Made by a program: the position numbers and the translations under genes
Virus record (IMG/VR): IMGVR_UViG_2684622554_000001
Direction: 5' to 3' (one strand)
DNA from: a virus
Taxonomy: Duplodnaviria > Heunggongvirae > Uroviricota > Caudoviricetes
DNA: 36,569 nucleotides
Shown: piece by piece, positions 1 through 36,569 of the stretch
Layout of the letters: every line of letters begins with the position of its first letter
Numbering within the stretch: position 1 is the first letter of the stretch
Notes under the pieces: generated by a model
Database searches by the model: none
The model's input: the letters and a program-made list of their open reading frames with translations, nothing else
Told to the model about the DNA's origin: nothing

Positions 1-318
1 ATGAAAAAGATAGCTGCTATATCATTAATTAGTATTTTTCTTATGTCTGGGTGTGCTGTACATAATGATGAGACAAGTATCGGTAAATTTGGTCTTGCAT
101 ATAAAAGTAATATTCAGCGTAAACTCGATAACCAATACTACACCGAAGCCGAAGCTTCTTTAGCCAGGGGCAGAATATCTGGTGCAGAAAATATAGTAAA
201 AAATGATGCAGCCCATTTCTGTGTTACTCAGGGCAAAAAAATGCAGATAGTTAAATTGAAGACAGAAGGTGCAGGATTACATGGCGTTGCTCGTCTGACA
301 TTCAAATGTGGAGAGTGA
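1..318 (+). CDS. yegR: Host-flank small exported protein, lipoprotein-like (YegR-like)
   Basis: 105-aa ORF from ATG at position 1. N-terminal hydrophobic signal with lipobox-like LMSGC. Size and position relative to cyaR/yegQ match the E. coli yegR neighbourhood as recalled, not searched. Confidence 0.55.
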   Translation: MKKIAAISLISIFLMSGCAVHNDETSIGKFGLAYKSNIQRKLDNQYYTEAEASLARGRISGAENIVKNDAAHFCVTQGKKMQIVKLKTEGAGLHGVARLTFKCGE

Positions 319-6860: not shown

Positions 6861-6893
6861 AAAAAAACCACCCTGGCAGGTGGTTTTTTTGTT
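6861..6893. terminator. Bidirectional rho-independent terminator
   Basis: AAAAAAACCACC-CTGGCA-GGTGGTTTTTTT: perfect 6-bp GC stem flanked by an A-run and a T-run. Sits after A (+) and after the small ORF (-). Confidence 0.7.
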
Positions 6894-6902
6894 TGAAGCA
6901 TA

Positions 6903-7494: not shown

Positions 7495-7513
7495 GGCGAG
7501 GCGGGGAAAGCAC
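7495..7513. other. cos site (19-nt P2/P4-type cohesive end GGCGAGGCGGGGAAAGCAC)
   Basis: Exact match to the P2/P4 cohesive-end sequence as recalled. Embedded in a GC-rich palindromic context. Confidence 0.8.
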
Positions 7514-7657
7514 TGCGCGCAGCCCGTCAAGAATAAAAAACTCTCTTGCAGGTAGAAAACATTCTGTTAACATTTGTCTGGATGAAGTTTAAGTTAGAAA
7601 TTTATGTTAATGAACTGATTGATACTTATGTTTTGTCAATAATTTAGGAATGTTAAG

Positions 7658-8794
7658 ATGACAAGCTATGTTACATGGGCAAATAAAGGTGGAATAGGTA
7701 AATCAACATTATCTTTCCAATTGGCGTTAAAATACGCGAGATTAAACACGAATAAAAAAGTAATCATAATAGATATGAGCCCTCAGTGTGATGTCTCTAG
7801 AATGTTATTGGGGGGAGGGCATTTTAACGGTGAGCAAAAGATCTTGGATAGAATGACCTCTAATCCAAGGTTGACAATTTACCGGTATCTTGAGGCCTGT
7901 GTTAATGATGTTCCTTCTGGGAGGGGATGGCCTGATTCATTATCATACTTAATTGAACCTAATTCTTTTCGAGACGAAAACGCAGAAAAATTGCCTGATA
8001 ATATTAGTATGGTCTGTGGAGATTTCGACTTAGAGAGGGTTACTCATAGTTTAGATAATTTGCCACAACCTCAACCAAGAGGCGGGCGTGTTCCGTCGGG
8101 TGCTCATTACTCAGCATATTTATTGCCACGCACTTTTCTACGGAAAATGGTGGAGGACTTTGAGCGCGAATACAGGGATGTGACAATTTTTATTGATACA
8201 GATCCATATTATTCGGTAGTAACAACACATCTGGGGCTTCTGGCTGCAGACAGGTTGATTTCGGCATACTCTCCTTCATCTCAAGCAAGCCAGTATGCAG
8301 TATATCGTAGCTTAGAGTTTCTATACGATCCTAATTATGGACTGGTGCAAGAGGTTAATACACAGAGAGCAATATATGGTACCCCTTGGTTTGATAGTTT
8401 AAATAATATAATTACAACACCGAATATATCTGTTGCAAATCTTTATATGGTAGTAAGTAACATGAATACGCCTCAGGCTGGAAGAGGACAACCTCCATAC
8501 AGCCAACCCCAAAAACTACATAGACAATCGCAACAAGAAGTTATATCTAGAATTAATGACACATTAAGTAGTTTGGGGATCGCGCATGATTATGTTCATG
8601 ACTATTTATGGGATCTCAAGAGATTAGGTTTGATTTGTGATTATAATGGTTTTGATTTAGCAACAATTCAATTAGGGGAAAATTATGCGGAACCAAGTGA
8701 TGATGGTAATTATTATGTAAATACTACAGGTGGAACACCGATCCAATTATCATCCTATAATGCTAGGATCGAAACTGTTACATCAAAACTATAA
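7658..8794 (+). CDS. Cargo A: ParA/MinD-type P-loop ATPase with about 180-aa C-terminal extension of unknown function
   Basis: 378 aa. Deviant Walker A (K10-GGIGKST17), A' motif VIIIDMSPQ, Walker B-like TIFIDTDP. AT-rich relative to the phage backbone. Own terminator. No adjacent parB-like or centromere partner. Confidence 0.85.
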   Translation: MTSYVTWANKGGIGKSTLSFQLALKYARLNTNKKVIIIDMSPQCDVSRMLLGGGHFNGEQKILDRMTSNPRLTIYRYLEACVNDVPSGRGWPDSLSYLIEPNSFRDENAEKLPDNISMVCGDFDLERVTHSLDNLPQPQPRGGRVPSGAHYSAYLLPRTFLRKMVEDFEREYRDVTIFIDTDPYYSVVTTHLGLLAADRLISAYSPSSQASQYAVYRSLEFLYDPNYGLVQEVNTQRAIYGTPWFDSLNNIITTPNISVANLYMVVSNMNTPQAGRGQPPYSQPQKLHRQSQQEVISRINDTLSSLGIAHDYVHDYLWDLKRLGLICDYNGFDLATIQLGENYAEPSDDGNYYVNTTGGTPIQLSSYNARIETVTSKL

Positions 8795-8801
8795 GAACTA
8801 G

Positions 8802-8822
8802 GGGAGCAAATGCTCCCTTTCT
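8802..8822. terminator. Rho-independent terminator between cargo A and Q (convergent)
   Basis: GGGAGC-AAAT-GCTCCC hairpin followed by TTTCT. Confidence 0.5.
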
Positions 8823-8866
8823 ATATATGGGTTATTAATTACCCGCTTATATAAATATTGAAGAAA

Positions 8867-9886
8867 CTATAGGGTGTATTGTCTGAATTTTATTACATTC
8901 TGACCGAGCCAGCCGTTTATTTCCCGAATCCTGTCCTGTAACGGGATAAGCTCATTGCGGACAAAGACCTTTGCCACTTTCTCAATATCACCCAGCGACC
9001 CGACGTTCTCCGGCTTGCCACCCATCAACTGAAAGGGGATGCGGTGTGCGTCCAGCAGGTCAGCGGCGCTGGCTTTTTTGATATTAAAAAAATCATCCTT
9101 CGTTGCCACTTCACTGAGCGGGATAATTTTAATGCCGTCGGCTTTCCCTTGTGGGGCATAGAGAAACAGGTTTTTAAAGTTGTTGCGGCCTTTCGACTTC
9201 ACCATGTTTTCGCGGAGCATTTCGATATCGTTGCGATCCTGCACGGCATCGGTGACGTACATGATGTATCCGGCATGTGCGCCGTTTTCGTAATACTTGC
9301 GGCGGAACAGCGTGGCCGACTCATTCAGCCAGGCAGAATTAAGGGCGCTCAGATATTCCGGCAGGCCGTACAGCTCCTGATTGATATCCGGCTCCAGCAG
9401 GTGAAACACGGAGCCGGGCGTGAAGGCTGTCGGCTCGTTGAAGGACGGCACCCACCAGTAAACATCCTCCTCCACGCCACGGCGGGTATATTTTGCCGGT
9501 GAGGTTTCCAGTCTGATGACCTTACCGGTGGTGCTGTAACGCTTTTCCAGAAACGCATTACCGAACACCAGAAAATCCAGCACAAAGCGGCTGAAATCCT
9601 GCTGGGAAAGCCACGGATGCGGGATAAATGTCGAGGCCAGAATATTGCGTTTGACGTAAATCGGTGAGCTGTGATGCACGGCAGCACGCAGGCTTTTTGC
9701 CAGACCGGTAAAGCTGACCGGTGGCTCATACCATCTGCCGTTACTGATGCACTCGACGTAATCCAGAATGTCACGGCGGTCGAGTACCGGCACCGGCTCA
9801 CCAAAGGTGAATGCCTCCATTTTCGGGGCGCTGGCGGTCATTTTTTTTGCCGCAGGTTGCGGTGTTTTCCCTTTTTTCTTGCTCAT
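8867..9886 (-). CDS. Q: Portal protein gpQ
   Basis: 339 aa with a basic N-terminus MSKKKGKTPQPAAKK. Position next to cos and P. The start codon ATG (9886..9884) lies inside the IS target duplication, and the native SD is now on the far side of the IS. Confidence 0.9.
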   Translation of the reverse strand: MSKKKGKTPQPAAKKMTASAPKMEAFTFGEPVPVLDRRDILDYVECISNGRWYEPPVSFTGLAKSLRAAVHHSSPIYVKRNILASTFIPHPWLSQQDFSRFVLDFLVFGNAFLEKRYSTTGKVIRLETSPAKYTRRGVEEDVYWWVPSFNEPTAFTPGSVFHLLEPDINQELYGLPEYLSALNSAWLNESATLFRRKYYENGAHAGYIMYVTDAVQDRNDIEMLRENMVKSKGRNNFKNLFLYAPQGKADGIKIIPLSEVATKDDFFNIKKASAADLLDAHRIPFQLMGGKPENVGSLGDIEKVAKVFVRNELIPLQDRIREINGWLGQNVIKFRQYTL

Positions 9887-10079
9887 TGCGTATTTTCATG
9901 AAAGGAGATCACTCAATAACTTCCATCGAGATCGGGTAATAACATTTGAACAGATCGCTGAATAACATCGATGGAGATCACTTTTGACTCATTTTGTTAT
10001 TCAGTGATCTCCATCAATGTTATTGGAACTTCACAGGTGTGTTGATCTGTATCTTTTGCCATTCCGGTAAAGGATACCT

Positions 10080-11621
10080 ATGCCAACAGTTCCAATTTCT
10101 ATGAGAAAACTTAAAGAAATTCTTAGGCTTAAATACGGTGTTGGACTCAGCCATCGACAAATTGGTCGTAGTCTTGCAATCTCCCCTTCCGTTGTATCCA
10201 GATATGCTAATCGGGCGGCTCAACTTGGCATAAAGCAGTGGCCCTTACCTACAGGATGGGATGATACAAAACTAAAACATGCGTTCCTTCAGACCCAGGT
10301 TAAGATGAAGAAGCACTCTCTGCCTGACTGGGCTACAGTACACCGGGAACTGCGTAATAAATGCGTGACGCTGCAGCTACTCTGGGAAGAATACTGTGAG
10401 CGTAATCCAGGCGGTTTTTACAGCTATAACCATTACTGCCGGATGTACCGTGAATGGCTCAAAACCACTTCACCATCAATGCGTCAGGTACATAAAGCTG
10501 GCGAAAAACTTTTCGTTGATTACTGTGGACCTACCGTTGGCGTTACCGACCCTGAGACCGGAGAAATAAGAACTGCTCAGGTCATCGTAGCTGTTCTCGG
10601 GGCATCAAGTTACACATGGGCAGAGGCCACCTGGTCTCAGCAGCTTGAAGACTGGGTGATGAGTCATGTTCGCTGCTTCCAGTGGTTGGGTGGCGTTCCT
10701 GAACTTGTTGTTCCGGACAATCTGAAAAGCGCCACATCCAGGGCATGTAAGTATGATCCTGACGTTAACCCTACCTACCAGCAGATGCTTGAGCATTATA
10801 ATGTCGCAGTTTTGCCTGCGCGGCCACGTAAACCGAAAGATAAAGCCAAAGCTGAAGTTGGCGTTCAGGTTGTTGAACGCTGGATCATGGCCCGAATCAG
10901 GCATGAGATCTTCTACAGCCTTGCATCGCTTAATCAGCGCATTCGGGAGTTGCTGGAAAGACTGAATAACAAAATAATGCAGAAGTTGGGTTATTCACGT
11001 GCAGAACTCTTCATCCAGCTTGATAAACCCGCACTGAAGCCTCTTCCTGAAGCCAGTTACAGTTACACCCTGGTGAAGAAAGTCAGAGTTCATGCCGATT
11101 ACCACGTGGAAATCGACAAACATTACTACTCGGTTCCATGTTCGCTGTTAGGCCAGCAACTGGAAGCATGGATCTCCGGAGAACTGGTAAGACTCTTCAA
11201 TCAGGGGCAGGAGGTTGCTGTGCACCCGCGCAAGCGTACTTATGGCTACAGTACCCGCAACGAGCACATGCCTGAAGCTCATCGACAGCATGCCACCTGG
11301 ACGCCAGAGCGTCTTCTGGAATGGGCGGGGCACATAGGCAGTGAAACTCATAGTTATGTGCTTCATATACTGAACTCTCGTCCACATCCGGAACAAAGCT
11401 ATCGCTTCTGCCTTGGACTCCTGAACCTTCATAAAAAATACAGTAAAGCCAGACTTAATGCAGCATGTGCAAGAGCTCTGAAAACAAAGGTATGGCGTCT
11501 GTCAGGTATTAAATCGATCCTGGAAAAAGGTCTGGATAAACAACCTGTTCAGGATCCAAAACCAGATCTGTTATCCACGATGGAACACGAAAACGTACGC
11601 GGCAGTGAGTATTACCACTGA
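10080..11621 (+). CDS. istA: IS21-family transposase IstA
   Basis: 513 aa. N-terminal HTH region and a DDE-type integrase core. Immediately followed by istB. Confidence 0.9.
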   Translation: MPTVPISMRKLKEILRLKYGVGLSHRQIGRSLAISPSVVSRYANRAAQLGIKQWPLPTGWDDTKLKHAFLQTQVKMKKHSLPDWATVHRELRNKCVTLQLLWEEYCERNPGGFYSYNHYCRMYREWLKTTSPSMRQVHKAGEKLFVDYCGPTVGVTDPETGEIRTAQVIVAVLGASSYTWAEATWSQQLEDWVMSHVRCFQWLGGVPELVVPDNLKSATSRACKYDPDVNPTYQQMLEHYNVAVLPARPRKPKDKAKAEVGVQVVERWIMARIRHEIFYSLASLNQRIRELLERLNNKIMQKLGYSRAELFIQLDKPALKPLPEASYSYTLVKKVRVHADYHVEIDKHYYSVPCSLLGQQLEAWISGELVRLFNQGQEVAVHPRKRTYGYSTRNEHMPEAHRQHATWTPERLLEWAGHIGSETHSYVLHILNSRPHPEQSYRFCLGLLNLHKKYSKARLNAACARALKTKVWRLSGIKSILEKGLDKQPVQDPKPDLLSTMEHENVRGSEYYH

Positions 11622-11632
11622 TACGGGATCCA

Positions 11633-12382
11633 ATGATGAATCATCTTTACGAACAACTGACCGCACTTAAACTCACCGGCTTCCGTGATGCGCTTAAAAA
11701 GCAACTTGCTCAACCGGGCACATACCAGGAGCTGGGCTTCGAAGAACGCCTGTCATTACTGACAGCAGAAGAACTAACCTGCCGTGAAAACAGGAAGGCA
11801 GAGCGTCTGATCAAACATGCACGGTTCAGACTTAATGCTGAGTTATCAAAGCTGGATTATCGTAACAATAGAGGGCTGGACAGGGCCCTCATCCGTTCAC
11901 TCAGTCAGGGAAACTGGTTAACCCTGAAACAAAATATTTTACTGACCGGGGCCACCGGCAGCGGTAAAACGTTCCTGGCATGTGCACTTGGTCATAATGC
12001 CTGCCGACAGGGATACAAGGTCTACTATTATCGCCTTAAAGCGCTGATGGAACAGTGCTATCAGGGGCATGCTGATGGAAGATACAGCAAACTTTTGACC
12101 AGGCTGAATAATAGCGATCTGCTGCTTCTGGATGACTGGGGGCTGGAACCTCTCTCATCAGAACAGCGTAGCGACCTGCTGGAAATAGTGGATCTGATGT
12201 ACCAACGAGGCTCAATCATCGTAGTGAGCCAGTTGCCGGTGGAAAACTGGTACAAAATGATCGGAGACTCCACACATGCGGATGCCATCCTAGATCGACT
12301 GGTTCATGGCAGTATCAAGATCGAACTTAAAGGAGAATCAATGCGGAAAATACAATCTCCGTTGACCGAAGGAGATCAGTGA
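11633..12382 (+). CDS. istB: IS21-family ATP-binding helper IstB
   Basis: 249 aa. Walker A GATGSGKTF and Walker B LLLLDDWG, AAA+/DnaC-like. Confidence 0.9.
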   Translation: MMNHLYEQLTALKLTGFRDALKKQLAQPGTYQELGFEERLSLLTAEELTCRENRKAERLIKHARFRLNAELSKLDYRNNRGLDRALIRSLSQGNWLTLKQNILLTGATGSGKTFLACALGHNACRQGYKVYYYRLKALMEQCYQGHADGRYSKLLTRLNNSDLLLLDDWGLEPLSSEQRSDLLEIVDLMYQRGSIIVVSQLPVENWYKMIGDSTHADAILDRLVHGSIKIELKGESMRKIQSPLTEGDQ

Positions 12383-12471
12383 AGGTAATTTAAAAACGGT
12401 TCTGTGAAAGTGACACGAACCGATCTCCATCGATGTTACTCACCGATCTCCTTCACGGTAATACGCACTCA

Positions 12472-14244
12472 TCAGTAAAACTCCAGAATGGTGGATGTCA
12501 GCGGGGTGCTTATACCGGCGGTGAGTGGCTCATTTAACAGGGCGTGCATGGTCGCCCAGGCGAGGTCGGCGTGGCTGGCTTCCTCGCTGCGGCTGGCCTC
12601 ATAGGTGGCACTGCGTCCGCTGCTGGTCATGGTCTTGCGGATAGCCATAAACGAGCTGGTGATGTCGGTGGCGCTGACGTCATATTCCAGACAGCCACGG
12701 CGGATAACGTCTTTTGCCTTGAGCACCATTGCGGTTTTCATTTCCGGCGTGTAGCGGATATCGCGCGCGGCGGGATAGAACGAGCGCACGAGCTGGAACA
12801 CGCCGACACCGAGGCCGGTGGCATCAATACCGATGTATTCGACGTTATATTTTTCGGTGAGTTTGCGGATGGATTCAGCCTGAGTGGCAAAGTCCATGCC
12901 TTTCCACTGGTGACGCTCAAGTATTCTGAATTTGCCACCGGCCACCACCGGCGGTGCCAGCACCACGCATCCGGCGCTGTCGCCACGGTGTGACGGGTCG
13001 TAACCAATCCATACCGGGCGGGAACCGAACGGATTGGCGGCAAAGGGTGCATAGTCTTCCCATTCTTCCAGCGTGTCGACCATGCAGCGTTGCAGCTCCT
13101 CGAACGGGAACACCGACGCCTTGTCGTCAACAAATTCACACATGAACAGGTTTTTAAAATCGTCGGCGCTGTTTTCGCGTTTGAGCTGTTCAATGTCGAA
13201 CAGCGTGCAGCCACCTTTCAGGGCGTCCTCAATGGTGACAATCTGCCGCCACTGGCCGTCTGCACAGAGAAGCCCACCGGCAAGGGCGTTATGACTGACG
13301 TCGATTTCCACGCGTTCGGCGGCGCTGGCGCGTCCCCGGTTGAACAGTTCACCCGACCAGAACGGGTAGGCGTCGTGCGCCAGCGTGGACGGGGTGGAGA
13401 AATAGGTCGAGCGCAGGTGACTCTGTGAGGCCATACCTGATGCCACCTTACGCAGTACCTGAAAATTCGGGATCCAGAAAATCTCATCGACGTACAGGTC
13501 GCCGTTATGGCTCTGCGCGGTGTTGGAGTTGGTGCCGAGAAAAATCAGTTTTGCGCCGTTATTGCCCAGGACAATCGGGTCACCGGTCAGGTCAACGTCA
13601 ACCAGCCGGGCAAAGGCGATGATGTATTCGCGGAACACATACGCCTGCGTTTTACTGGCCGACAGAAAAATCTGGTTATGACCGGTTTTCAGGGCGCGCA
13701 GCAGCGCCTCGCGGGAAAAATAAAACGTCGCGCCAATCTGGCGGGATTTCAGGATATCGCGGATGCGGTGCTCAAGCCCGGCGCGATACCAGTGCAACTG
13801 ATACTCGAAAGACTGCTCAAAGAAAATCTGCTCCAGCTTTTCGATGGCCTCGTCACTGAAAAAATTCTTTTTCGGTTTGCGACGCCCGCCTTTGTTGCGG
13901 TTAGCGACGTTCGGATTAAGGTCTGCCTCGTTGCCGGTCTGACTGTAACGGTTGACCCGTGCCAGTCGTTCAATCTGGCGTCCGAGCAGGTCAATTTCCT
14001 TGAAGTCACCGCCGGTTTTCTGCGGTTTGATGATGAGCTGGGTCAGCCGCGCTTCCAGACTCATTTCGACACGGCTGATGGGGGCAACGCTGTCCCAGCC
14101 GTCGCGCTGTTTCCAGCTCTGCACCGTCGGGCGTTTCATCTGCAACATGGCGGCAATCTGCGGCACGGAAAACCCCTGCCAGTACAGCAGCGCCGCCTGA
14201 CGACGCGGGTCGTGTAAAAGAGTGGTGTCTGTGGTGATGGTCAT
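12472..14244 (-). CDS. P: Terminase large subunit gpP
   Basis: 590 aa from the ATG at 14244 with a GAGG SD (the track start at 14274 is a TTG). Length equals P2 gpP. Stop TGA at 12474..12472 overlaps the right-hand IS target duplication. Confidence 0.95.
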   Translation of the reverse strand: MTITTDTTLLHDPRRQAALLYWQGFSVPQIAAMLQMKRPTVQSWKQRDGWDSVAPISRVEMSLEARLTQLIIKPQKTGGDFKEIDLLGRQIERLARVNRYSQTGNEADLNPNVANRNKGGRRKPKKNFFSDEAIEKLEQIFFEQSFEYQLHWYRAGLEHRIRDILKSRQIGATFYFSREALLRALKTGHNQIFLSASKTQAYVFREYIIAFARLVDVDLTGDPIVLGNNGAKLIFLGTNSNTAQSHNGDLYVDEIFWIPNFQVLRKVASGMASQSHLRSTYFSTPSTLAHDAYPFWSGELFNRGRASAAERVEIDVSHNALAGGLLCADGQWRQIVTIEDALKGGCTLFDIEQLKRENSADDFKNLFMCEFVDDKASVFPFEELQRCMVDTLEEWEDYAPFAANPFGSRPVWIGYDPSHRGDSAGCVVLAPPVVAGGKFRILERHQWKGMDFATQAESIRKLTEKYNVEYIGIDATGLGVGVFQLVRSFYPAARDIRYTPEMKTAMVLKAKDVIRRGCLEYDVSATDITSSFMAIRKTMTSSGRSATYEASRSEEASHADLAWATMHALLNEPLTAGISTPLTSTILEFY

Positions 14245-20617: not shown

Positions 20618-20767
20618 TTGTGCAATTTTTTTACGCTTTATTGCTGAGTTGTTGATTGTTGTATAACACTCTTTGTATTTTCGTCGGATAAGTTTTAATT
20701 GCCACTTGAAAATATACAGTCGATTGGGGCATAAGGATTCATCAATGGTGATCGTTTGAATGTTTAA

Positions 20768-20798
20768 GGCCGCGATAAAATGTCGCGGCCAGTTTTTT
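20768..20798. terminator. Rho-independent terminator between S and cargo B
   Basis: GGCCGCGA-TAAAATG-TCGCGGCC 8-bp stem followed by TTTTTT. Confidence 0.6.
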
Positions 20799-20821
20799 CC
20801 GTTTGCGAACTGACCAGGTTG

Positions 20822-21565
20822 TTATCTGGTTAAATAAGTGAGCTCACTCTCTTTAGGTATTAGCTGAGTGTCTCCTCCCCATTCGTTCATGATGTTTTTT
20901 CTCGCATTCCAGTATTCTTGGTAAGTATCTTGATGAACAGTGTAGATACTTGCTAAAAGCCAGTGTTGATACTTAAGAGTCGTGTATTGGTATTCTTCTA
21001 TTATCGGTAAAATGAATAAGTTTTTTTGCTTTAGTGAGATTAAATATTCTTTTGTTTGTTTGGTGGTTCTGTCATTGTTTAAGATTCTTTCAATCTTAAA
21101 TGAAAAGCCGTGCATGTTTATATTTCTTTGGAGGTGCATGAATGATGATATTGATGGGGCGATCATGTTTTGATGCGTCAGGATGTTTCTTAAATCCTCC
21201 ATTAATTTTATTACTGGATTATTTCGGAATTCATGATTGATGAATGCCTCTGATTTGATTTTAATGTCGGCAATATTTAATGCTTTTGTTTTAAGTAGGT
21301 TGCGCGTTGAATCTCTAAATGATAATGCTGAAGATATATAATTGAAAAGGTGTCTTGATATGTTTAAATGTTCTTTTTTAAATTTGTCTCTGTTAAATGA
21401 ATGACGGGAAACAATGTCAGGGGAGTTGAATTTGCTTAATTCATGTTGGACAACTTCGTAATTGGCAATATGCATATGTCCAAGTAAATTGGTGTCGGAG
21501 ATTTTTAAATACTCTTGGTGGGCGATGGTGTCTTTTTGATTTTCCCAGATTTGATATTTATCCAT
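20822..21565 (-). CDS. Cargo B: AT-rich hypothetical protein with two Rx4H motifs (possible HEPN-type or abortive-infection-like)
   Basis: 247 aa on the strand opposite the tail operon. Strongly AT-rich. Own SD (AAGGA). R126-x4-H131 and R147-x4-H152. Confidence 0.8.
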   Translation of the reverse strand: MDKYQIWENQKDTIAHQEYLKISDTNLLGHMHIANYEVVQHELSKFNSPDIVSRHSFNRDKFKKEHLNISRHLFNYISSALSFRDSTRNLLKTKALNIADIKIKSEAFINHEFRNNPVIKLMEDLRNILTHQNMIAPSISSFMHLQRNINMHGFSFKIERILNNDRTTKQTKEYLISLKQKNLFILPIIEEYQYTTLKYQHWLLASIYTVHQDTYQEYWNARKNIMNEWGGDTQLIPKESELTYLTR

Positions 21566-21648
21566 ACTTCAGTTCCTTCTTGATTGTGCCAAAAATGATA
21601 CAACGGATTGTAATGGTTTATCGAGTATATATCTCTCATTATTGCCGT

Positions 21649-24073: not shown

Positions 24074-25615
24074 ATGAGCACAAAATTCAGAACCGTTATC
24101 ACCACTGCCGGTGCAGCAAAGCTGGCAGCGGCAACCGCGCCGGGAGGGCGGAAGGTCAACATTACCACGATGGCCGTCGGGGATGGCGGTGGTAAATTGC
24201 CTGTCCCGGATGCCGGACAGACCGGGCTTATCCATGAAGTCTGGCGACATGCGCTGAACAAAATCAGCCAGGACAAACGAAACAGTAATTATATTATCGC
24301 AGAGCTGGTTATTCCGCCGGAGGTGGGCGGTTTCTGGATGCGTGAGCTTGGCCTGTACGATGATGCGGGAACATTAATTGCCGTGGCGAACATGGCCGAA
24401 AGTTATAAGCCAGCTCTTGCCGAAGGCTCAGGGCGTTCGCAGACCTGTCGCATGGTCATCATCGTCAGCAGTGTGGCCTCAGTGGCGCTGACCATTGACA
24501 CCACAACGGTGATGGCGACGCAGGATTACGTTGATGACAAAATTGCAGAGCATGAACAGTCACGACGTCACCCGGACGCCTCGCTGACCGCAAAAGGTTT
24601 TACTCAGTTAAGCAGTGCGATCAACAGCACGTCTGAAACACTGGCCGCAACGCCGAAAGCGGTAAAGGCCGCGTATGATCTTGCTAACGGGAAATACACT
24701 GCGCAGGATGCCACCACAGCGCGAAAAGGCCTTGTCCAGCTCAGTAGCGCCACCAACAGCACGTCTGAAACGCTCGCCGCTACACCAAAAGCGGTAAAGG
24801 CAGCATATGACCTTGCTAACGGGAAATACACTGCACAGGACGCCACCACAGCGCGAAAAGGTCTTGTCCAGCTCAGTAGCGCCACCAACAGCGATTCTGA
24901 AACGCTTGCAGCAACGCCAAAGGCGGTTAAGACAGCGTATGACCTTGCTAACGGGAAATACACTGCGCAGGATGCCACCACGGCGCGAAAAGGCCTTGTC
25001 CAGCTCAGTAGCGCCACCAACAGTGATTCTGAAACGCTGGCCGCAACACCAAAAGCAGTGAAGTCTGCCTATGACAATGCTGAAAAACGTCTTCAGAAAG
25101 ATCAGAACGGTGCGGATATTCCGGGAAAGGATACCTTCACGAAAAATATCGGTGCCTGTCGTGCTTATAGCGGCGCTTTGAGCACTGAAGCCGGAAACTG
25201 GACAACCGCTCAGTTTATTGAATGGCTGGATTCCCGTGGTGCATTTAATCATCCGTACTGGATGTGCAAATGTTCATGGTCATACGGCAATAATAAAATT
25301 ATTACCGATACTGGCTGTGGAACTATTCATCTTGCAGGTTGCGTTATTGAGGTTATGGGTAATAAAGGTGCCATGACCATCCGTGTAACAACACCAAGCA
25401 CTTCCACCGGAGGCGGCACCACTAACGCTCAATTCACTTATATTAATCATGGTGATGCTTATGCTCCTGGCTGGCGACGAGACTACAACACGAAAAACCA
25501 GCAGCCTGCATTTGCTTTAGGGAAAACAGGAAGCACTGTCGGAAATGATAAAGCTGTTGGCTGGAACTGGAATAGCGGGTCTATCAAGCAAATATTGGTG
25601 GCGCATCGACATTAA
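24074..25615 (+). CDS. H: Tail fiber protein gpH (N-terminal and repeat region); likely continues into 25630..26001 through a frameshift
   Basis: N-terminal about 180 aa resemble the P2 gpH N-terminus (MSxKFRTVITTAGAAKLAAATAPG...). GAGGA SD. Ends abruptly at ...LVAHRH. Confidence 0.85.
   Translation: MSTKFRTVITTAGAAKLAAATAPGGRKVNITTMAVGDGGGKLPVPDAGQTGLIHEVWRHALNKISQDKRNSNYIIAELVIPPEVGGFWMRELGLYDDAGTLIAVANMAESYKPALAEGSGRSQTCRMVIIVSSVASVALTIDTTTVMATQDYVDDKIAEHEQSRRHPDASLTAKGFTQLSSAINSTSETLAATPKAVKAAYDLANGKYTAQDATTARKGLVQLSSATNSTSETLAATPKAVKAAYDLANGKYTAQDATTARKGLVQLSSATNSDSETLAATPKAVKTAYDLANGKYTAQDATTARKGLVQLSSATNSDSETLAATPKAVKSAYDNAEKRLQKDQNGADIPGKDTFTKNIGACRAYSGALSTEAGNWTTAQFIEWLDSRGAFNHPYWMCKCSWSYGNNKIITDTGCGTIHLAGCVIEVMGNKGAMTIRVTTPSTSTGGGTTNAQFTYINHGDAYAPGWRRDYNTKNQQPAFALGKTGSTVGNDKAVGWNWNSGSIKQILVAHRH
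24608..25075 (+). repeat. In-frame tandem repeat inside H: 132-bp (44-aa) unit, about 3.5 copies
   Basis: LSSA[TI]NS[TD]SETLAATPKAVK[AT]AYDLANGKYTAQDATTARKGLVQ repeated. Causes long spurious antisense ORFs in the track. Confidence 0.9.
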
Positions 25616-25629
25616 TCCTCCATTTCAAT

Positions 25630-26001
25630 ATGAGCGAGGGGAGTTGCCCTGCCGTACAGTTCCGTGTGAATTATAAGAACGGCGGTATTTATTATCGTTC
25701 AGCGCGTGATGGTTATGGATTTGAGGCTGACTGGTCAGAGTTTTACACCACAACCCGCAAACCCTCTGCGGGAGATGTTGGTGCATATACCAAAGATGAA
25801 TCGGATTCTCGCTATGTACGAGATATTCGCCTGGGCACACGTGTTGTTCAGACTATGAAAAAAGGTGTGATGTATGAGAAAGCAGGGCACGTAATTACCG
25901 GGCTTGGTATTGTCGGTGAAGTCGATGGTGATGACCCCGCAGTATTCAGACCAATACAAAAATACATCAATGGAACATGGTATAACGTCGCACAGGTGTA
26001 A
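25630..26001 (+). pseudogene. Tail fiber C-terminal (receptor-binding) segment, probably the 3' part of H separated by a 1-bp deletion
   Basis: No SD before the ATG at 25630. Its frame is open upstream to 25576, overlapping the H 3' end, and the frame offset is the same -1 seen in R, J, FII and T. Confidence 0.45.
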
Positions 26002-26004
26002 TTT

Positions 26005-26532
26005 ATGCAGCATTTAAAAAATATTATTGCGGGTAATCCAAAAACTGTTGCCCAATATCAACTGACAAAAAATTTTGATGTTATCTGGTTATGGTCCGAA
26101 GAGGGAAAAAACTGGTATGAGGAAGTAAATAATTTTCAGGAGGACACGATAAAGATTGTTTACGACGAGAATAATATAATTGTCGGCATCACCAGAGATG
26201 CTTCAACGCTTAACCCTGAAGGTTTTAGCGTTGTCGAGGTTCCTGATATTACCGCCAACCGACGTGCTGATGACTCAGGTAAATGGATGTTTAAGGATGG
26301 TGCCGTGATTAAGCGGATTTATACGGCAGACGAACAGCAACAACAGGCCGAATCACAAAAGGCCGCGTTACTTTCCGAAGCGGAAAGCGTTATCCAGCCG
26401 CTGGAACGCGCCGTCAGGCTGAATATGGCGACGGATGAGGAGCGCGCACGACTGGAGTCATGGGAACGCTACAGCGTTCTGGTCAGCCGTGTGGATCCTG
26501 CAAATCCTGAATGGCCGGAAATACCGCAATAA
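26005..26532 (+). CDS. G: Tail fiber assembly chaperone gpG
   Basis: 175 aa, the same length as P2 gpG. Immediately after the tail fiber. Confidence 0.85.
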
Positions 26533-26821
26533 GTTGTATGATATCTGGAGTGAGCTAACGTATCTATGGCACAGAGTAAAACTTAATCTGACAGTCTGCT
26601 CTGTACCAAAAGCGGAACTTGCTTACATCGTGCTATGTTAGTTTACTGGGAGCAGGTCATTATCTACGTGATTGCTATTTTATAACTTGGATAAAATGGG
26701 GATGAACATAATATCGAGACAGTGATTGCAGAGTTAGTCATTATAGGCGGGCATCAGTTCATGCCGGATCTCTAATGCAATTATCAGGAAAATATGGGAC
26801 GTTTTATCAATCAGAGGAAAT

Positions 26822-28048
26822 ATGTTACAGTTCAGCTTTGTATCAAATGACGTTGTTATGACTTACGACGGTGACAGCGGAGAACAAATAATTTGGGTTT
26901 GGGAGAGTTTAAATAAATTTCAAACAGTATGCATTTCACGAATTTTTAACTTTCAACTCCAGGATTTGAGAAACCCACCGTCAACCGTTCAGGATTTTAA
27001 TGATTACGAATATTCCTTTAATTTTGGCACGCTTAATAATGAATACATAACAGTTCCGGGACGGATTCTAAGCATTAATCGAGATGTCCTTATACATAAG
27101 TCCATCAAGCTTGAAAGGAAAGTATTTGCGTCAGAACGCAACGTCTCCATTTTTGGTCGGCTTTCAAAACTACTCGAACACACTAATCCCATCATCATCG
27201 GAGGAGATAAGCCGGAAGCTATACCAAAAAGCGTATTCCAGGAGTTGCAAAGTAAATTCCCCAACACAGGGGAACTGGATCGCTATGCTAATGCAAGGGT
27301 TCACGCTATTCTCGCAGGTTATCTTGATGGTATGAAAGATGCTCGCGAACGGTATGAACATTACCTAAACAGAAAAACAGTGATCAGAAAAACCGACAAA
27401 CTGGATTTAGAAGTTTTAAATAAGCTCGAAATTGAGAAATATACACTCATAAGAGACATTATCCAGGATGCGTTGAATAACAAAACTAACTTGTCTGAAG
27501 ATGACTGGCAGAGCCTGATGATACCCTTCATCACATTACTTTTTCCAAAATATATCAAGGTCCTCGAGAAGGTTAAAATTTTCGACTATTACTCTAATCC
27601 TTCGGCTAAAACAAATCGGTTTATAGACATTGCACTGGTGGATGCAAACGGCAACCTTGATATCATCGAAGTCAAAAAGCCGTTTGATGATAAGATCCTT
27701 CGCAAGACGCCCTATCGCGATAACTATATTCCTACATCAGAACTTAGCGGCGGTATTATGCAGGCTGAAAAGTATATTTTTCATTTATCTAAATGGGGTG
27801 TTAAGGGTGAAAAAGAGCTTACGAATGCCTACAAGAATTCTCTGCCAGCGGGAATGTGTATTCGTATATCTAACCCAAAAGCCATCATCATTGTCGGGCG
27901 CGATCAGATAGCGAACGGTAACATGACCGACGGTCAGTTGCTTGATTTTGAGATAATCAAACGTAAGTACGCCAACATGATAGACATATTGACGTACGAC
28001 GACCTGTTGCGTCGACTTAATAATACGATTGAAGCATTGAAAGGTTGA
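26822..28048 (+). CDS. Cargo C (Z/fun slot): protein with C-terminal PD-(D/E)xK nuclease signature, possibly Shedu/DUF4263-like
   Basis: 408 aa, AT-rich. RFID269IALVD...DIIE283VK285 with Q314 downstream. Own SD (GAGGAAAT). Located between G and FI. Confidence 0.85.
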   Translation: MLQFSFVSNDVVMTYDGDSGEQIIWVWESLNKFQTVCISRIFNFQLQDLRNPPSTVQDFNDYEYSFNFGTLNNEYITVPGRILSINRDVLIHKSIKLERKVFASERNVSIFGRLSKLLEHTNPIIIGGDKPEAIPKSVFQELQSKFPNTGELDRYANARVHAILAGYLDGMKDARERYEHYLNRKTVIRKTDKLDLEVLNKLEIEKYTLIRDIIQDALNNKTNLSEDDWQSLMIPFITLLFPKYIKVLEKVKIFDYYSNPSAKTNRFIDIALVDANGNLDIIEVKKPFDDKILRKTPYRDNYIPTSELSGGIMQAEKYIFHLSKWGVKGEKELTNAYKNSLPAGMCIRISNPKAIIIVGRDQIANGNMTDGQLLDFEIIKRKYANMIDILTYDDLLRRLNNTIEALKG

Positions 28049-28333
28049 ATGCCCATGAGGTTCACACCCACAACGGGGAGCAGGTCACTTCCTCTTGTTT
28101 GATTGACATACCATAACGTCTGCTTTTGGCTCAAAGCAGACTGTCTGATTTGATAGCTTTTGGGCTATGTAAATTGTCAGTTGAAAAATGAGTGAGTACA
28201 AATCAGGACGGGCGGCGAGTTGCCCGCCTTTTCTTTAATCTGTTGTTTCATCCACTGACCAGTCAGGTCAAATAGCGTCTTATGCACTGCCCAACAGAAA
28301 ATAGTTGCACCCATTAACCACGGAGTTAAACGG

Positions 28334-29524
28334 ATGAGTGACTATCATCACGGCGTGCAGGTGCTGGAGATTAACGACGGCACCCGCGTCATTTCCACCG
28401 TATCCACCGCCATTGTTGGCATGGTCTGCACGGCCAGCGATGCGGATGCGGAAATCTTCCCCCTCAATAAACCGGTGCTGATTACCAATGTGCAGAGCGC
28501 AATTGCAAAGGCCGGTAAAAAAGGCACGCTGGCGGCGTCGTTACAGGCCATCGCTGACCAGTCAAAACCGGTCACCGTTGTCGTACGTGTGGAAGACGGC
28601 ACCGGCGACGACGAGGAAACGAAACTCGCGCAGACCGTTTCCAATATCATCGGCACTACCGACGAAAACGGTCAGTACACCGGACTGAAAGCCCTGCTGG
28701 CGGCGGAGTCGGTAACCGGTGTTAAACCGCGTATTCTCGGTGTGCCGGGGCTGGATACCAAAGAGGTGGCTGTTGCACTGGCATCAGTCTGTCAGAAGCT
28801 GCGCGCTTTCGGGTATATCAGCGCATGGGGCTGTAAAACCATTTCCGAGGTGAAAGCTTACCGCCAGAATTTCAGCCAGCGTGAGCTGATGGTCATCTGG
28901 CCGGATTTCCTCGCATGGGATACGGTCGCCAGTACCACCGCCACCGCGTATGCCACCGCCCGTGCGCTGGGTCTGCGCGCTAAAATCGACCAGGAGCAGG
29001 GCTGGCATAAAACGCTGTCCAACGTCGGGGTGAACGGTGTTACCGGCATCAGCGCATCTGTATTCTGGGATTTGCAGGAGTCCGGTACTGATGCTGACCT
29101 GCTTAACGAGTCAGGTGTCACTACGCTGATTCGCCGCGACGGTTTCCGCTTCTGGGGTAACCGTACCTGCTCTGATGACCCGCTGTTCCTCTTTGAAAAC
29201 TACACCCGCACCGCGCAGGTGTTGGCCGACACGATGGCTGAGGCGCACATGTGGGCGGTGGATAAGCCCATCACCGCAACGCTGATTCGCGACATCGTTG
29301 ACGGCATCAATGCCAAATTCCGTGAGCTGAAAACAAACGGCTATATCGTGGATGCGACCTGCTGGTTCAGCGAAGAATCCAACGATGCGGAAACCCTCAA
29401 GGCCGGAAAACTGTATATCGACTACGACTATACACCGGTGCCTCCTCTCGAAAACCTGACCCTGCGCCAGCGTATTACCGATAAATACCTGGCAAATCTG
29501 GTCACCTCGGTTAACAGCAATTAA
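28334..29524 (+). CDS. FI: Tail sheath protein gpFI
   Basis: 396 aa, the same length as P2 gpFI. GGAG SD. Confidence 0.95.
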   Translation: MSDYHHGVQVLEINDGTRVISTVSTAIVGMVCTASDADAEIFPLNKPVLITNVQSAIAKAGKKGTLAASLQAIADQSKPVTVVVRVEDGTGDDEETKLAQTVSNIIGTTDENGQYTGLKALLAAESVTGVKPRILGVPGLDTKEVAVALASVCQKLRAFGYISAWGCKTISEVKAYRQNFSQRELMVIWPDFLAWDTVASTTATAYATARALGLRAKIDQEQGWHKTLSNVGVNGVTGISASVFWDLQESGTDADLLNESGVTTLIRRDGFRFWGNRTCSDDPLFLFENYTRTAQVLADTMAEAHMWAVDKPITATLIRDIVDGINAKFRELKTNGYIVDATCWFSEESNDAETLKAGKLYIDYDYTPVPPLENLTLRQRITDKYLANLVTSVNSN

Positions 29525-35036: not shown

Positions 35037-35063
35037 AAAAAATAAGCCCGTGTAAGGGAGATT
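35037..35063. repeat. attR core, 27-bp P2-type attachment core (AAAAAATAAGCCCGTGTAAGGGAGATT)
   Basis: Direct repeat of the 647..673 copy. Forms the 3' terminus of cyaR. Confidence 0.85.
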
Positions 35064-35123
35064 ACACAGGCTAAGGAGGTGGTTCCTGGTACAGCTAGCA
35101 TTTTATGGGTTATGTTTTTCAGC
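35037..35123 (-). ncRNA. cyaR: CyaR (RyeE) Hfq-dependent sRNA; its 3' end is the prophage attachment core
   Basis: The reverse complement matches the recalled 87-nt E. coli CyaR sequence (GCUGAAAAACAUAACCCAUAAAAUGCUAGCUG...CGGGCUUAUUUUUU). Confidence 0.9.
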
Positions 35124-35207
35124 GAAACGGATGATAACCTTAATAAATGCAGCTGTATGTGATCGGTTTCTAAGAATTTTCCATCCGGGAAAAATAATCG
35201 AAATTAA

Positions 35208-36569
35208 TCACTTACCGTGGGGGTTACGCGTGGTTTCCCCGGAGAAATTACGCATCAGCAGCGCGTAATTTAGCTCAAGATCCTGCGGCACCGGGAGCCA
35301 CACAGTATAACCATCGCCTGGTGCGACCGGCATAGCTTCACCTTTGGCGTTTTCCATGTGCTCAAGGGTAAAGTTAATGTTGCCTTGCGGCGTCATTAGC
35401 TCAAGGCTGTCGCCAACGGAGAATTTATTTTTCACCGCTACCGCCGCGAGGTCCCCCTTGCGCTCACCGGTAAACTCACCAACAAACTGCTGGCGGTCAG
35501 AAACTGAATAACCGTATTCGTAGTTCTGATAATCGTCGTGAGTATGACGACGCAGGAAACCTTCGGTATAGCCACGATGCGCCAGACCTTCCAGAGTTTC
35601 CAGCAGGCTGGTATCGAACGGTTTGCCCGCAGCGGCGTCATCGATAGCTTTACGGTAAACCTGCGCGGTGCGTGCGCAATAGTAGAAAGATTTGGTACGG
35701 CCTTCGATTTTCAGCGAATGCACGCCCATTTTGGTCAGGCGTTCAACATGGGCGATGGCGCGCAGATCTTTCGAGTTCATGATGTAAGTGCCGTGCTCAT
35801 CTTCAAACGCGGTCATATACTCGCCCGGACGCTGGGCTTCTTCGATCATAAACACTTTGTCGGTTGGCGCGCCGATACCCAGCGTCGGCTCAACATTTTG
35901 CACCGGAATCGGCTCGTACTTGTGTACGATGTTGCCAACGTCATCTTCTTTCCCTTCCTGGACGTTGTACTCCCAGCGGCAGGCGTTGGTGCAGGTGCCC
36001 TGGTTCGGGTCGCGCTTGTTGATATAGCCAGAGAGCAGGCAGCGACCGGAGTAGGCCATGCACAGCGCGCCGTGAACGAAGATTTCGATTTCCATATCCG
36101 GCACCTGATTGCGGATCTCTTCAATCTCTTCCAGTGACAGTTCGCGAGAGAGGATCACGCGGGTCAGGCCCATTTGCTGCCAGAATTTCACCGTCGCCCA
36201 GTTCACGGCGTTAGCCTGTACCGAGAGATGGATCGGCATTTCAGGGAAGTGCTCACGCACCAGCATAATCAGCCCTGGATCGGACATAATCAGCGCATCC
36301 GGCCCCATTTCCACCACCGGTTTCAGGTCACGGATAAAGGTTTTCAGCTTGGCGTTGTGCGGTGCAATGTTGACCACGACATAAAACTTTTTCCCCAGCG
36401 CGTGGGCTTCGTTAATGCCGAGTTGAAGATTTTCGTGGTTGAATTCGTTGTTGCGCACACGCAGGGAGTAACGCGGCTGGCCCGCATAAACAGCATCTGC
36501 GCCATAAGCGAAAGCGTAACGCATATTTTTCAGCGTTCCCGCCGGGGAAAGGAGTTCCGGTTTAAACAT
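35208..36569 (-). CDS. yegQ: Peptidase U32-family protein YegQ/TrhP (tRNA hydroxylation)
   Basis: 453 aa, MFKPELLSPAGTLKNMRYAFAYGADAVYAG. Start codon at the extreme window edge (36569..36567). Host gene next to cyaR, as in E. coli. Confidence 0.9.
   Translation of the reverse strand: MFKPELLSPAGTLKNMRYAFAYGADAVYAGQPRYSLRVRNNEFNHENLQLGINEAHALGKKFYVVVNIAPHNAKLKTFIRDLKPVVEMGPDALIMSDPGLIMLVREHFPEMPIHLSVQANAVNWATVKFWQQMGLTRVILSRELSLEEIEEIRNQVPDMEIEIFVHGALCMAYSGRCLLSGYINKRDPNQGTCTNACRWEYNVQEGKEDDVGNIVHKYEPIPVQNVEPTLGIGAPTDKVFMIEEAQRPGEYMTAFEDEHGTYIMNSKDLRAIAHVERLTKMGVHSLKIEGRTKSFYYCARTAQVYRKAIDDAAAGKPFDTSLLETLEGLAHRGYTEGFLRRHTHDDYQNYEYGYSVSDRQQFVGEFTGERKGDLAAVAVKNKFSVGDSLELMTPQGNINFTLEHMENAKGEAMPVAPGDGYTVWLPVPQDLELNYALLMRNFSGETTRNPHGK

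What the first reader, a model, noticed from the sequence alone, without database searches (positions are those of the whole stretch)
26533..28333. Z/fun-slot cargo with a C-terminal PD-(D/E)xK nuclease signature (Shedu-like?)
Between G and FI, the classical P2 Z/fun moron position, sits an AT-rich 408-aa ORF. Residues 266-285 read RFIDIALVDANGNLDIIEVK (D269, E283-x-K285) with Q314 downstream, a canonical restriction-endonuclease-fold active site. The large N-terminal domain of about 260 aa is unrecognised. The architecture resembles single-protein nuclease defences such as Shedu (DUF4263), but it could be a distinct nuclease effector.
Basis: partly seen in the sequence, partly recalled or inferred. 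Interest (0 to 1): 0.6.

Follow-up and report, generated by a model that had tools for sequence, protein, structure and literature searches.

The report
Known Shedu nuclease in P2 prophage

Summary
A 408-aa ORF at 26822..28048 (+), 39.5% GC against 50.9% for the window, sits between P2 gene G (26005..26532) and FI (28334..29524). It carries RFIDIALVDANGNLDIIEVK at residues 266-285 and Q314.

It is Shedu:
- Pfam SduA_C (PF14082) scores 3e-33.
- The PADLOC SduA model scores 1e-219 over the full length.
- RefSeq names it "Shedu immune nuclease family protein".
- It is 407/408 identical (E119 here, D119 there) to PDB 8PS4/8PS5/8PS6, the E. coli SduA of Loeff et al. (Cell 2025).

That work showed a homotetramer whose N-terminal domains clamp free dsDNA ends. 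The PD-(D/E)xK domain then nicks about 13-14 nt from the 5' end. E226, D269, E283, K285 and Q314 alanine mutants lose defence, and T6 escapes through uvsW loss.

The same gene is almost certainly PD-T4-8 from ECOR31 (Vassallo 2022). Its locus was deposited as the P2-EC31 Z-region (AJ512677). Loeff et al. already note that Shedu occurs in the P2 Z/fun hotspot.

Verdict: already known, low interest. Side notes: the prophage carries an IS21-family insertion and a frameshifted tail-fibre gene.

The parts
26005..26532 (+). P2 gene G (tail fibre assembly protein). This is the left backbone flank of the cargo slot.
   Evidence: Pfam Caudo_TAP 2.9e-36. About 90% nt identity to P2 G. RefSeq annotation of the 99.4%-identical locus in strain 20A24.
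26505..26617 (.). Left inverted repeat of the Z-region, as annotated in P2-EC31. The best-matching arm is 26585-26616. It belongs to the conserved backbone, and the cargo begins just after it.
   Evidence: AJ512677 annotation mapped onto the window. The repeat finder pair I1: 32 nt, 84% complementary. The arm is conserved in P2, Wphi and 12474III.
26621..28113 (+). Cargo-specific segment (1,493 bp). It is absent from P2, Wphi and 12474III, which carry unrelated genes here. It contains sduA with its own upstream and downstream signals.
   Evidence: BLAST breakpoints at 26620 and 28114. Junction alignment. Found in 53 of 5,426 complete E. coli genomes, all at >=99% identity and all chromosomal.
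26648..26659 (+). Left copy of the 12-nt direct repeat GGGAGCAGGTCA, 28 nt inside the left cargo junction. Unexplained.
   Evidence: 0 of 100 shuffles gave two matches. Absent from the other cargos.
26687..26714 (+). Putative sigma-70 promoter of sduA: TTGGAT, 16-nt spacer, TAATAT. Annotated but not validated.
   Evidence: The -35 and -10 signals of AJ512677 mapped by sequence. The consensus scan did not list it. The PD-T4-8 clone that conferred defence carried 257 bp of upstream sequence, which covers this site.
26822..28048 (+). sduA, the type I (Type 1B) Shedu immune nuclease, 408 aa. N-terminal DNA-end clamp domain is aa 1-145, helical linker 146-194, and DUF4263 PD-(D/E)xK nuclease domain 195-408. 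Catalytic residues are E226, Q230, D269, E283, K285 and Q314.
   Evidence: 407/408 identical to PDB 8PS4. Domain limits and residues come from Loeff et al.. Residues are invariant in close homologues and distant ones.
28075..28094 (+). Terminator-like hairpin just after the sduA stop codon. It contains the right copy of the 12-nt repeat (28076-28087).
28118..28208 (.). Right inverted repeat of the Z-region. The best arm is 28119-28150, which is itself a hairpin at 28118-28141. It is conserved backbone.
   Evidence: AJ512677 annotation mapped. The repeat finder I1 and I4. Conserved in P2, Wphi and 12474III.
28209..28226 (+). GC-rich hairpin followed by a T-run (CGGGCGGCGAGTTGCCCG CCTTTTCTTT). 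This is a terminator-like site in the shared backbone upstream of FI.
28334..29524 (+). P2 gene FI (tail sheath). This is the right backbone flank.
   Evidence: Pfam Phage_sheath_1 1e-33, Phage_sheath_1C 4e-23. P2 annotation.

Best explanation
The ORF at 26822..28048 is sduA, the single-gene Shedu anti-phage system, in the E. coli 'EcSduA / PD-T4-8' version. It is carried as accessory cargo in the Z/fun hotspot (between G and FI) of a P2-like prophage integrated between yegR and cyaR/yegQ.

Shown here: family membership, full-length near-identity to the solved protein, an intact active site, the slot and its boundaries, and the distribution.

Taken from published work on a protein that differs by one residue: SduA forms a homotetramer. 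Pairs of N-terminal domains form a narrow clamp that admits only a free dsDNA end, which is stacked on W25. The duplex is then laid over the PD-(D/E)xK site of the DUF4263 domain, and the 5' strand is nicked about 13-14 nt from the end in a Mg2+-dependent reaction. Circular DNA, meaning the chromosome and plasmids, is spared. Linear phage DNA and recombination-dependent replication intermediates of T-even phages are damaged, which gives >30,000-fold protection against T2 and T6 without killing the cell.

Inferred: in the lysogen the gene is transcribed from its own weak promoter (TTGGAT-16-TAATAT at 26687-26714), because the surrounding late operons are silent. It benefits the prophage by excluding competing lytic phages. 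P2 replicates as monomeric circles (textbook knowledge of P2, not tested here), so it would expose few DNA ends to its own nuclease.
For: - Pfam PF14082 SduA_C: 3.1e-33, 115.6 bits against a cutoff of 27, aa 224-396.
- PADLOC SduA models PDLC04067 (1.2e-219) and PDLC00388 (4e-171), both full length.
- PDB 8PS4/8PS5 'Shedu effector protein': E=1.2e-274, identical at 407/408 positions (E119 against D119). 8PS6 is its N-terminal fragment, residues 1-188.
- RefSeq annotation 'Shedu immune nuclease family protein', WP_001515542.1, at the same G-FI position in strain 20A24.
- Exact-sequence cluster names.
- Mechanism, mutants (E226A, D269A, E283A, K285A, Q314A, W25A, R106A) and phenotypes come from Loeff et al.. 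Their discussion states that Shedu occurs in the Z/fun locus of P2 prophages.
- W25, R106, E226, Q230, D269, E283, K285 and Q314 are invariant in 12 cluster members. They are kept in 26-30 of 30 sequences (the window protein plus 29 homologues at 37-65% identity) from other phyla; the only copy that loses E283, K285 and Q314 is frameshifted.
- PD-T4-8 from ECOR31 has the same ORF length (1,227 bp), a DUF4263 domain, and was selected for T4 resistance. The P2-EC31 Z-region is 99.4% identical at the DNA level.
- The cargo holds only this one gene between the conserved inverted-repeat arms.
Against: Nothing contradicts the identification.

- Expression in this particular lysogen is not shown. The annotated promoter is weak (-35 matches 3 of 6) and was not picked up by the consensus scan.
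- The D119E substitution is untested. Position 119 is highly variable in the family, with E in 4 and D in 3 of the 30 aligned sequences (the window protein plus 29 relatives), and it is not among the residues implicated in DNA binding.
- Vassallo et al. are cited as proposing abortive infection for PD-T4-8. Loeff et al. saw no culture collapse at MOI 5. The cell-level outcome is therefore not fully settled.
- In the DNA-bound structure the scissile phosphate is about 12 A from the metal site, so the activation step is unresolved.
Confidence: 0.96

Rival explanations
1. The gene is Shedu but protects by abortive infection. Once activated, it damages host as well as phage DNA, so infected cells die or arrest instead of clearing the phage.
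For: [quoted passage not shown]. The isolated DUF4263 domain (residues 195-408 or 146-408) is toxic to E. coli. A different E. coli two-component Shedu, KELShedu, is reported to act by abortive infection (abstract).
Against: Cells expressing EcSduA and infected with T6 at MOI 5 grew like uninfected cells. Circular plasmids were not restricted, whereas linear fragments were. The full-length protein is not toxic.
Confidence: 0.1
2. The gene is an intact-looking but silent or functionally decaying passenger of a crippled prophage, and it contributes nothing in this strain.
For: The prophage carries a 2,581-bp IS21-family insertion between P and Q and a frameshift in tail-fibre gene H, so it is probably no longer a viable phage. 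The upstream promoter is only a weak consensus match.
Against: The ORF is full length with every catalytic and DNA-end-binding residue intact, and it differs from the active protein by one conservative change at a variable position. A fragment with 257 bp of native upstream DNA was sufficient for the PD-T4-8 phenotype. Published surveys find that defective P2 elements keep near-identical, probably functional, defence genes.
Confidence: 0.05
3. It is a distinct PD-(D/E)xK nuclease effector that only superficially resembles Shedu, or a homologue of P2 Fun(Z).
For: NCBIfam has no model that matches it. [quoted passage not shown]
Against: The Pfam SduA_C hit is far above its threshold. Sixteen PADLOC SduA models match. 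The depositors of the identical structure, and RefSeq, both call it Shedu. Gu et al. classify PD-T4-8 as a Type 1B Shedu. There is no similarity to P2 Fun(Z): best BLASTP E-value 3.4.
Confidence: 0.01

Closest known systems
E. coli SduA (EcSduA, from E. coli KTE10). PDB 8PS4, 8PS5, 8PS6. Loeff, Walter, Rosalen & Jinek, Cell 2025 (bioRxiv 10.1101/2023.08.10.552762).
   Same: Same length and 407/408 residues identical, including W25, R106, E226, Q230, D269, E283, K285 and Q314. The paper reports the same type of genomic location, the Z/fun locus of P2 prophages.
   Different: One conservative substitution, E119 here against D119, at a position that varies freely in the family. The host strain is different.
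PD-T4-8 from E. coli ECOR31 (Vassallo et al., Nat Microbiol 2022), and the P2-EC31 Z-region ORF1 (GenBank AJ512677; Nilsson et al. 2004).
   Same: Same ORF length (1,227 bp), a DUF4263 domain, and the same P2 hotspot at the fun position. The P2-EC31 locus is 99.4% identical over 1,862 bp, including both inverted repeats and the promoter.
   Different: The 2003 GenBank record annotates a shorter CDS (321-1409, 362 aa), and tblastn needs two pieces to cover it. That points to a frameshift or a sequencing error in that record. I could not retrieve RCP52534.1 itself, so residue-level identity to PD-T4-8 is inferred rather than shown.
Bacillus cereus Shedu (SduA; Doron et al. 2018; structure in Gu et al., 10.1101/2023.08.10.552793).
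   Same: Same C-terminal DUF4263 / SduA_C PD-(D/E)xK nuclease core, a homotetramer, and a single-gene system.
   Different: The N-terminal sensor domain is unrelated. The activation model also differs: a catalytic residue is sequestered and activation involves higher-order assembly (abstract). The E. coli type is Type 1B, NTD cluster N2.
P2 Fun(Z), the cargo of the same slot in phage P2.
   Same: Same position between G and FI, bounded by the same conserved inverted-repeat arms. It is AT-rich accessory DNA with a phage-exclusion phenotype; Fun(Z) blocks T5.
   Different: There is no sequence similarity. It lies on the opposite strand and has 528 aa. It has no PADLOC hit.

Membership tests
Shedu (SduA) anti-phage system | DUF4263 / SduA_C domain scoring above the curated threshold | tested here: met
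   PF14082 at 115.6 bits against a cutoff of 27, E=3.1e-33, profile positions 2-159 of 159. Sixteen PADLOC SduA models match, the best at 1.2e-219.
Shedu (SduA) anti-phage system | Complete PD-(D/E)xK active site (E226, Q230, D269, E283, K285, Q314 in EcSduA numbering) | tested here: met
   All six residues are present. They are invariant in 12 close homologues and in 29-30 of 30 aligned sequences (the window protein plus 29 distant relatives); the one exception is frameshifted.
Shedu (SduA) anti-phage system | Single-gene system with no obligatory partner gene | tested here: met
   The 1,493-bp cargo between the conserved backbone junctions holds only this gene. Distant homologues do not share flanking genes with it. 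The single cloned ORF was enough for defence in published work.
Type I Shedu, EcSduA subtype (Type 1B of Gu et al.) | N-terminal DNA-end clamp domain plus helical linker ahead of the nuclease domain, with W25 and R106 | tested here: met
   Full-length alignment to 8PS4 and to the N-terminal fragment 8PS6. W25 is kept in 26 of the 27 aligned sequences that have a residue at that position (26 of 30 overall, the window protein included) and R106 in 29 of 30.
Shedu (SduA) anti-phage system | Homotetramer that binds dsDNA ends and nicks about 13-14 nt from the 5' end | not testable with these tools
   Shown biochemically and by cryo-EM for the protein that differs by D119E. Not measured for this exact sequence.
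Shedu (SduA) anti-phage system | Confers phage resistance in vivo | not testable with these tools
   EcSduA gives >30,000-fold protection against T2 and T6. PD-T4-8 was selected on T4.
P2 Z/fun hotspot cargo | Lies between G and FI, bounded by the conserved inverted-repeat arms, with lower GC than the backbone and unrelated genes in other P2-like phages | tested here: met
P2 Fun(Z) protein family | Sequence similarity to P2 Fun(Z) | tested here: not met
   Best BLASTP E-value 3.4 over 15 residues.
KELShedu (two-component Shedu) | A second, co-encoded DNA-binding partner (KELA) | tested here: not met
   There is no second gene in the cargo. The definition of the system is taken only from the abstract listed.

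The most novel reading that the evidence does not exclude
The sharp cargo junctions sit exactly at the inner edges of the inverted-repeat arms that all P2-like phages conserve (26585-26616 and 28119-28150). In addition, a 12-nt exact direct repeat (GGGAGCAGGTCA at 26648 and 28076) lies about 27 nt inside each end of the sduA cargo. Together these could mark a dedicated cassette-exchange mechanism for this hotspot, site-specific or hairpin-mediated, rather than simple homologous recombination in G and FI. The way such hotspots swap defence genes is still described as unresolved. The gene itself would remain ordinary.
Probability: 0.1. Interest if true: 0.45.

Novelty: already known. Interest (0 to 1): 0.08.

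Why it matters
It matters little as a discovery. The protein, its structure, its catalytic residues, its DNA-end-sensing mechanism, its phage targets and even its residence in the P2 Z/fun hotspot are all published.

The result is useful as a calibration point. A reader working from raw sequence alone correctly identified the slot, the fold, the catalytic residues and the family.

It also gives one more example of a probably defective P2 prophage (IS21 insertion, broken tail-fibre gene) that keeps an intact defence gene. That fits published surveys of P2 and P4 defence hotspots.

Tried and rejected
- NCBIfam gave no hit. This reflects a missing model, not evidence against Shedu.
- The sigma-70 consensus scan found no + strand promoter upstream of the ORF. 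The only candidate is the weak one annotated in AJ512677.
- tblastn against 50,697 phage records found the gene only in the P2-EC31 fragment, so it is not in any sequenced free P2-like phage of that collection.
- In plasmids there are only distant (65-67% nt) Shedu genes, in Rahnella and Paraburkholderia.
- Comparison with P2 Fun(Z) found no similarity.
- The 12-nt repeat was searched for in the other Z/fun cargos and in 31 distant SduA loci. It was absent, so I could not show that it travels with the gene.
- None of the distant homologues lies beside P2 G or FI.
- Nilsson et al. 2004 (doi 10.1093/molbev/msg223), which first described this locus, is not held in the library. What I attribute to it rests only on the GenBank record AJ512677 and its title.
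- Mapping the P2 pF activator-binding site onto the window with up to 6 substitutions failed.
- I did not run structure prediction, fold search or the large protein-database searches. A solved structure of an essentially identical protein made them unnecessary.

Full report
**Observation**

The interval 26533-28333 contains one long ORF, at 26822..28048 on the + strand. It is 408 aa, starts at ATG, and is preceded by a GAGG Shine-Dalgarno sequence. The peptide RFIDIALVDANGNLDIIEVK occupies residues 266-285.

The ORF is 39.5% GC against 50.9% for the window. The upstream gene (26005..26532) is a tail-fibre assembly protein (Pfam Caudo_TAP, 2.9e-36). The downstream gene (28334..29524) is a tail sheath protein (Phage_sheath_1, 1e-33). 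These correspond to P2 G and FI, which flank fun(Z) in phage P2 itself.

**What it is**

- Pfam places residues 224-396 in SduA_C (PF14082, formerly DUF4263) at E=3.1e-33, which is 115.6 bits against a gathering score of 27.
- PADLOC gives full-length matches to two SduA models (1.2e-219 and 4e-171) and weaker C-terminal matches to fourteen more.
- PHROGs has a full-length family of unknown function.
- NCBIfam has nothing.
- Against the PDB, the protein aligns end to end with the 'Shedu effector protein' of entries 8PS4 and 8PS5 (E=1.2e-274). The single difference is E119 here against D119 there. Its first 188 residues also align with the N-terminal fragment 8PS6.
- RefSeq annotates the same gene, in the same position between the tail fibre assembly and tail sheath genes, as 'Shedu immune nuclease family protein' (WP_001515542.1 in strain 20A24).
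- The exact sequence is in public databases under that name.

**Published characterisation**

Three sources cover this gene.

1. The PDB entries belong to Loeff, Walter, Rosalen and Jinek (bioRxiv 10.1101/2023.08.10.552762; published as Cell 2025;188:721 according to the reference list read).
   - They expressed SduA from E. coli KTE10 and found >30,000-fold protection against T2 and T6, with no culture collapse at MOI 5.
   - The protein is a tetramer (dimer of dimers).
   - Each protomer has an N-terminal domain (1-145) with no structural homologue, a helical linker, and a DUF4263 nuclease domain (195-408). The nuclease domain alone is toxic.
   - The active site comprises E226, Q230, D269, E283, K285 and Q314 around a Mg2+ ion. 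Alanine substitutions abolish defence and cleavage.
   - In the DNA complex, a dsDNA end is held in a clamp formed by two N-terminal domains and stacked on W25. The 5' strand is nicked about 13-14 nt from its end.
   - Linear DNA fragments are restricted in vivo, but circular plasmids are not. T6 escapers carry uvsW mutations.
   - The discussion states that Shedu systems occur in the Z/fun locus of P2 prophages.
2. Vassallo et al. 2022 selected PD-T4-8, a DUF4263 protein from ECOR31, for T4 resistance. They also noted a second P2 defence hotspot at the fun position. Their Table S2 gives an ORF of 1,227 bp, the same length as here, cloned with 257 bp upstream and 324 bp downstream.
3. GenBank AJ512677, 'Bacteriophage P2-EC31 proviral Z-region, ORF1', is 99.4% identical to window 26503-28363. 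It annotates the flanking inverted repeats, a promoter and a 'putative lysogenic conversion protein'.

Gu et al. classify PD-T4-8 as a Type 1B Shedu.

**Anatomy of the slot**

Homology to P2, Wphi and vB_EcoM-12474III stops at window 26620 and resumes at 28114. The cargo-specific DNA is therefore 26621-28113, which is 1,493 bp. The three comparison phages carry unrelated genes there: fun(Z), orf44 and a SMEK-domain protein. Fun(Z) shows no similarity to SduA.

The last about 35 nt of the left backbone and the first about 35 nt of the right backbone are inverted repeats of each other (26585-26616 and 28119-28150, 84% complementary). They are conserved in all four phages.

Inside the cargo:
- The promoter annotated in AJ512677 maps to TTGGAT (26687-26692) and TAATAT (26709-26714), with a 16-nt spacer.
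- Terminator-like hairpins follow the stop codon at 28075-28094, and in the backbone at 28118-28141 and 28209-28226.
- A 12-nt exact direct repeat, GGGAGCAGGTCA, lies 28 nt inside the left junction and 26 nt inside the right one. None of 100 shuffles gave two matches. It is absent from the other cargos and from distant SduA loci. I could not explain it.

**Distribution and conservation**

The cargo is present in 53 of 5,426 complete E. coli genomes. It is always >=99% identical, always chromosomal, and always sits with the G and FI flanks. No free phage genome in the INPHARED collection carries it, apart from the P2-EC31 fragment. Plasmids hold only distant relatives.

A scan of one genome per species found 30 full-length relatives at 37-65% identity. 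They come from Pseudomonas, Aminobacter, Caballeronia, Sphingomonas, Akkermansia, Methylacidiphilum and others, and none lies beside P2 tail genes.

I aligned 29 of these relatives with the window protein (30 sequences); counts below include the window protein:
- E226 and D269 are kept in 30 of 30.
- Q230, E283, K285 and Q314 are kept in 29 of 30.
- R106 is kept in 29 of 30.
- W25 is kept in 26 of the 27 that have a residue there.
- The nuclease domain is more conserved (34-76% identity) than the N-terminal domain (23-48%).
- The one sequence that loses E283, K285 and Q314 is visibly frameshifted.
- Position 119 is variable, so D119E is probably neutral.

**How it works**

The shown and published steps are set out above. 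My inferences are these:
- In a lysogen the late operons on either side are silent, so sduA must use its own promoter.
- The fragment that gave the PD-T4-8 phenotype included that promoter.
- The gene serves the prophage by excluding T-even competitors.
- P2, which from general knowledge replicates as monomeric circles, would present few ends to its own nuclease. This last point is untested.

The main mechanistic uncertainty in the literature is whether protection is direct or abortive (as cited). The second is how the DNA moves the remaining about 12 A into the active site.

- The non-nuclease N-terminal part is about 194 residues (domain plus linker), not about 260.
- The N-terminal part is now structurally defined as a DNA-end clamp.
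- Two further active-site residues, E226 and Q230, lie upstream of the quoted motif.

**Context noticed in passing**

The window is a complete P2-like prophage between yegR (1..318) and CyaR/yegQ (35040-35125 and 35208..36569).

- A 2,581-bp IS21-family element (9887-12467) is inserted precisely at the overlap of the P stop codon and the Q start codon. It encodes istA-like (513 aa) and istB-like (249 aa) proteins, has terminal inverted repeats beginning TGCGTATT, and is flanked by a 5-bp CTCAT target duplication.
- Tail-fibre gene H is frameshifted at about 25579.
- The tin/old hotspot holds a ParA-like ATPase with no PADLOC match.
- The orf30 slot holds a 247-aa AT-rich ORF of unknown function.

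**Verdict**

The feature is an already known and thoroughly characterised defence gene in an already described hotspot. Interest is low.

Noticed in passing
window 9887-12467 (target duplications at 9882-9886 and 12468-12472): A 2,581-bp IS21-family insertion sequence. It encodes an istA-like transposase (10080..11621, 513 aa; Pfam rve plus Mu-transpos_C_2) and an istB-like protein (11633..12382, 249 aa; IstB_IS21, 2e-67). It has terminal inverted repeats beginning TGCGTATT and a 5-bp CTCAT target duplication. It is inserted exactly at the overlap of the terminase P stop codon and the portal Q start codon. Both ORFs stay intact, but Q is now 2.6 kb away from P, so the insertion is probably polar and the prophage probably defective.
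   Followed up: partly
window 24074-26001 (break near 25579): Tail-fibre gene H is split into ORFs of 513 aa and 123 aa. Relative to the 642-aa H of strain 20A24 there is a 1-nt deletion at about 25579 (codon ~502), at the point where the C-terminal receptor-binding part starts to diverge. It is either a real pseudogene or an assembly error.
   Followed up: partly
window 6601-8866 (ORF 7658..8794 +): The classical tin/old hotspot between gpA and portal Q holds a 378-aa ParA/MinD-like ATPase (Pfam AAA_31 4e-10; phrog_164 ParA-like; RefSeq 'ParA family protein'). It has no PADLOC defence-model hit. No complete E. coli genome has this whole interval, and the ParA part was listed in only two genomes. 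It is a possible uncharacterised defence candidate.
   Followed up: partly
window 20620-21648 (ORF 20822..21565 -): A third variable, very AT-rich slot (GC 0.32-0.40) between the S-like virion morphogenesis gene and baseplate gene V, at the position of P2 orf30. It holds a 247-aa ORF on the opposite strand with no Pfam or PADLOC hit. It matches phrog_12680 (unknown function). It is found in 18 of 5,426 E. coli genomes, six of them at >=99% identity.
   Followed up: partly
window 26648-26659 and 28076-28087: An exact 12-nt direct repeat, GGGAGCAGGTCA, lies just inside both ends of the sduA cargo. None of 100 shuffles gave two matches. It is absent from other Z/fun cargos and from distant SduA loci. 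The right copy overlaps a terminator-like hairpin. Unexplained.
   Followed up: partly
window 35040-35125 (-): CyaR/RyeE sRNA (Rfam RF00112, 100.7 bits) lies at the right end of the prophage next to yegQ. The prophage occupies the yegR - cyaR/yegQ site, the same site as in strain 20A24. No tRNA gene is present in the window.
   Followed up: no
L001 (AJ512677) 321-1543, compared with window 26822-28048: The 2003 GenBank record of the P2-EC31 Z-region annotates ORF1 as only 362 aa (321-1409). tblastn with the window protein needs two pieces to span it. The record also has one extra G in the promoter spacer. These are probably sequencing errors or a frameshift in that record.
   Followed up: partly
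window 24589-25081: Tail fibre H contains four tandem copies of a roughly 44-aa Phage_fiber_2 repeat (...TAQDATTARKGLVQLSSATNS.SETLAATPKAVK.AYDLANGKY...). They are visible as self-matches in BLAST and as four Pfam stretches.
   Followed up: no
L033 (MAG, uncultured Alphaproteobacteria) 3001-4174: A distant SduA homologue whose reading frame breaks inside the catalytic motif, after the residues aligned to DANG. It is either a pseudogene or a MAG assembly error. It is the only relative lacking E283, K285 and Q314.
   Followed up: no
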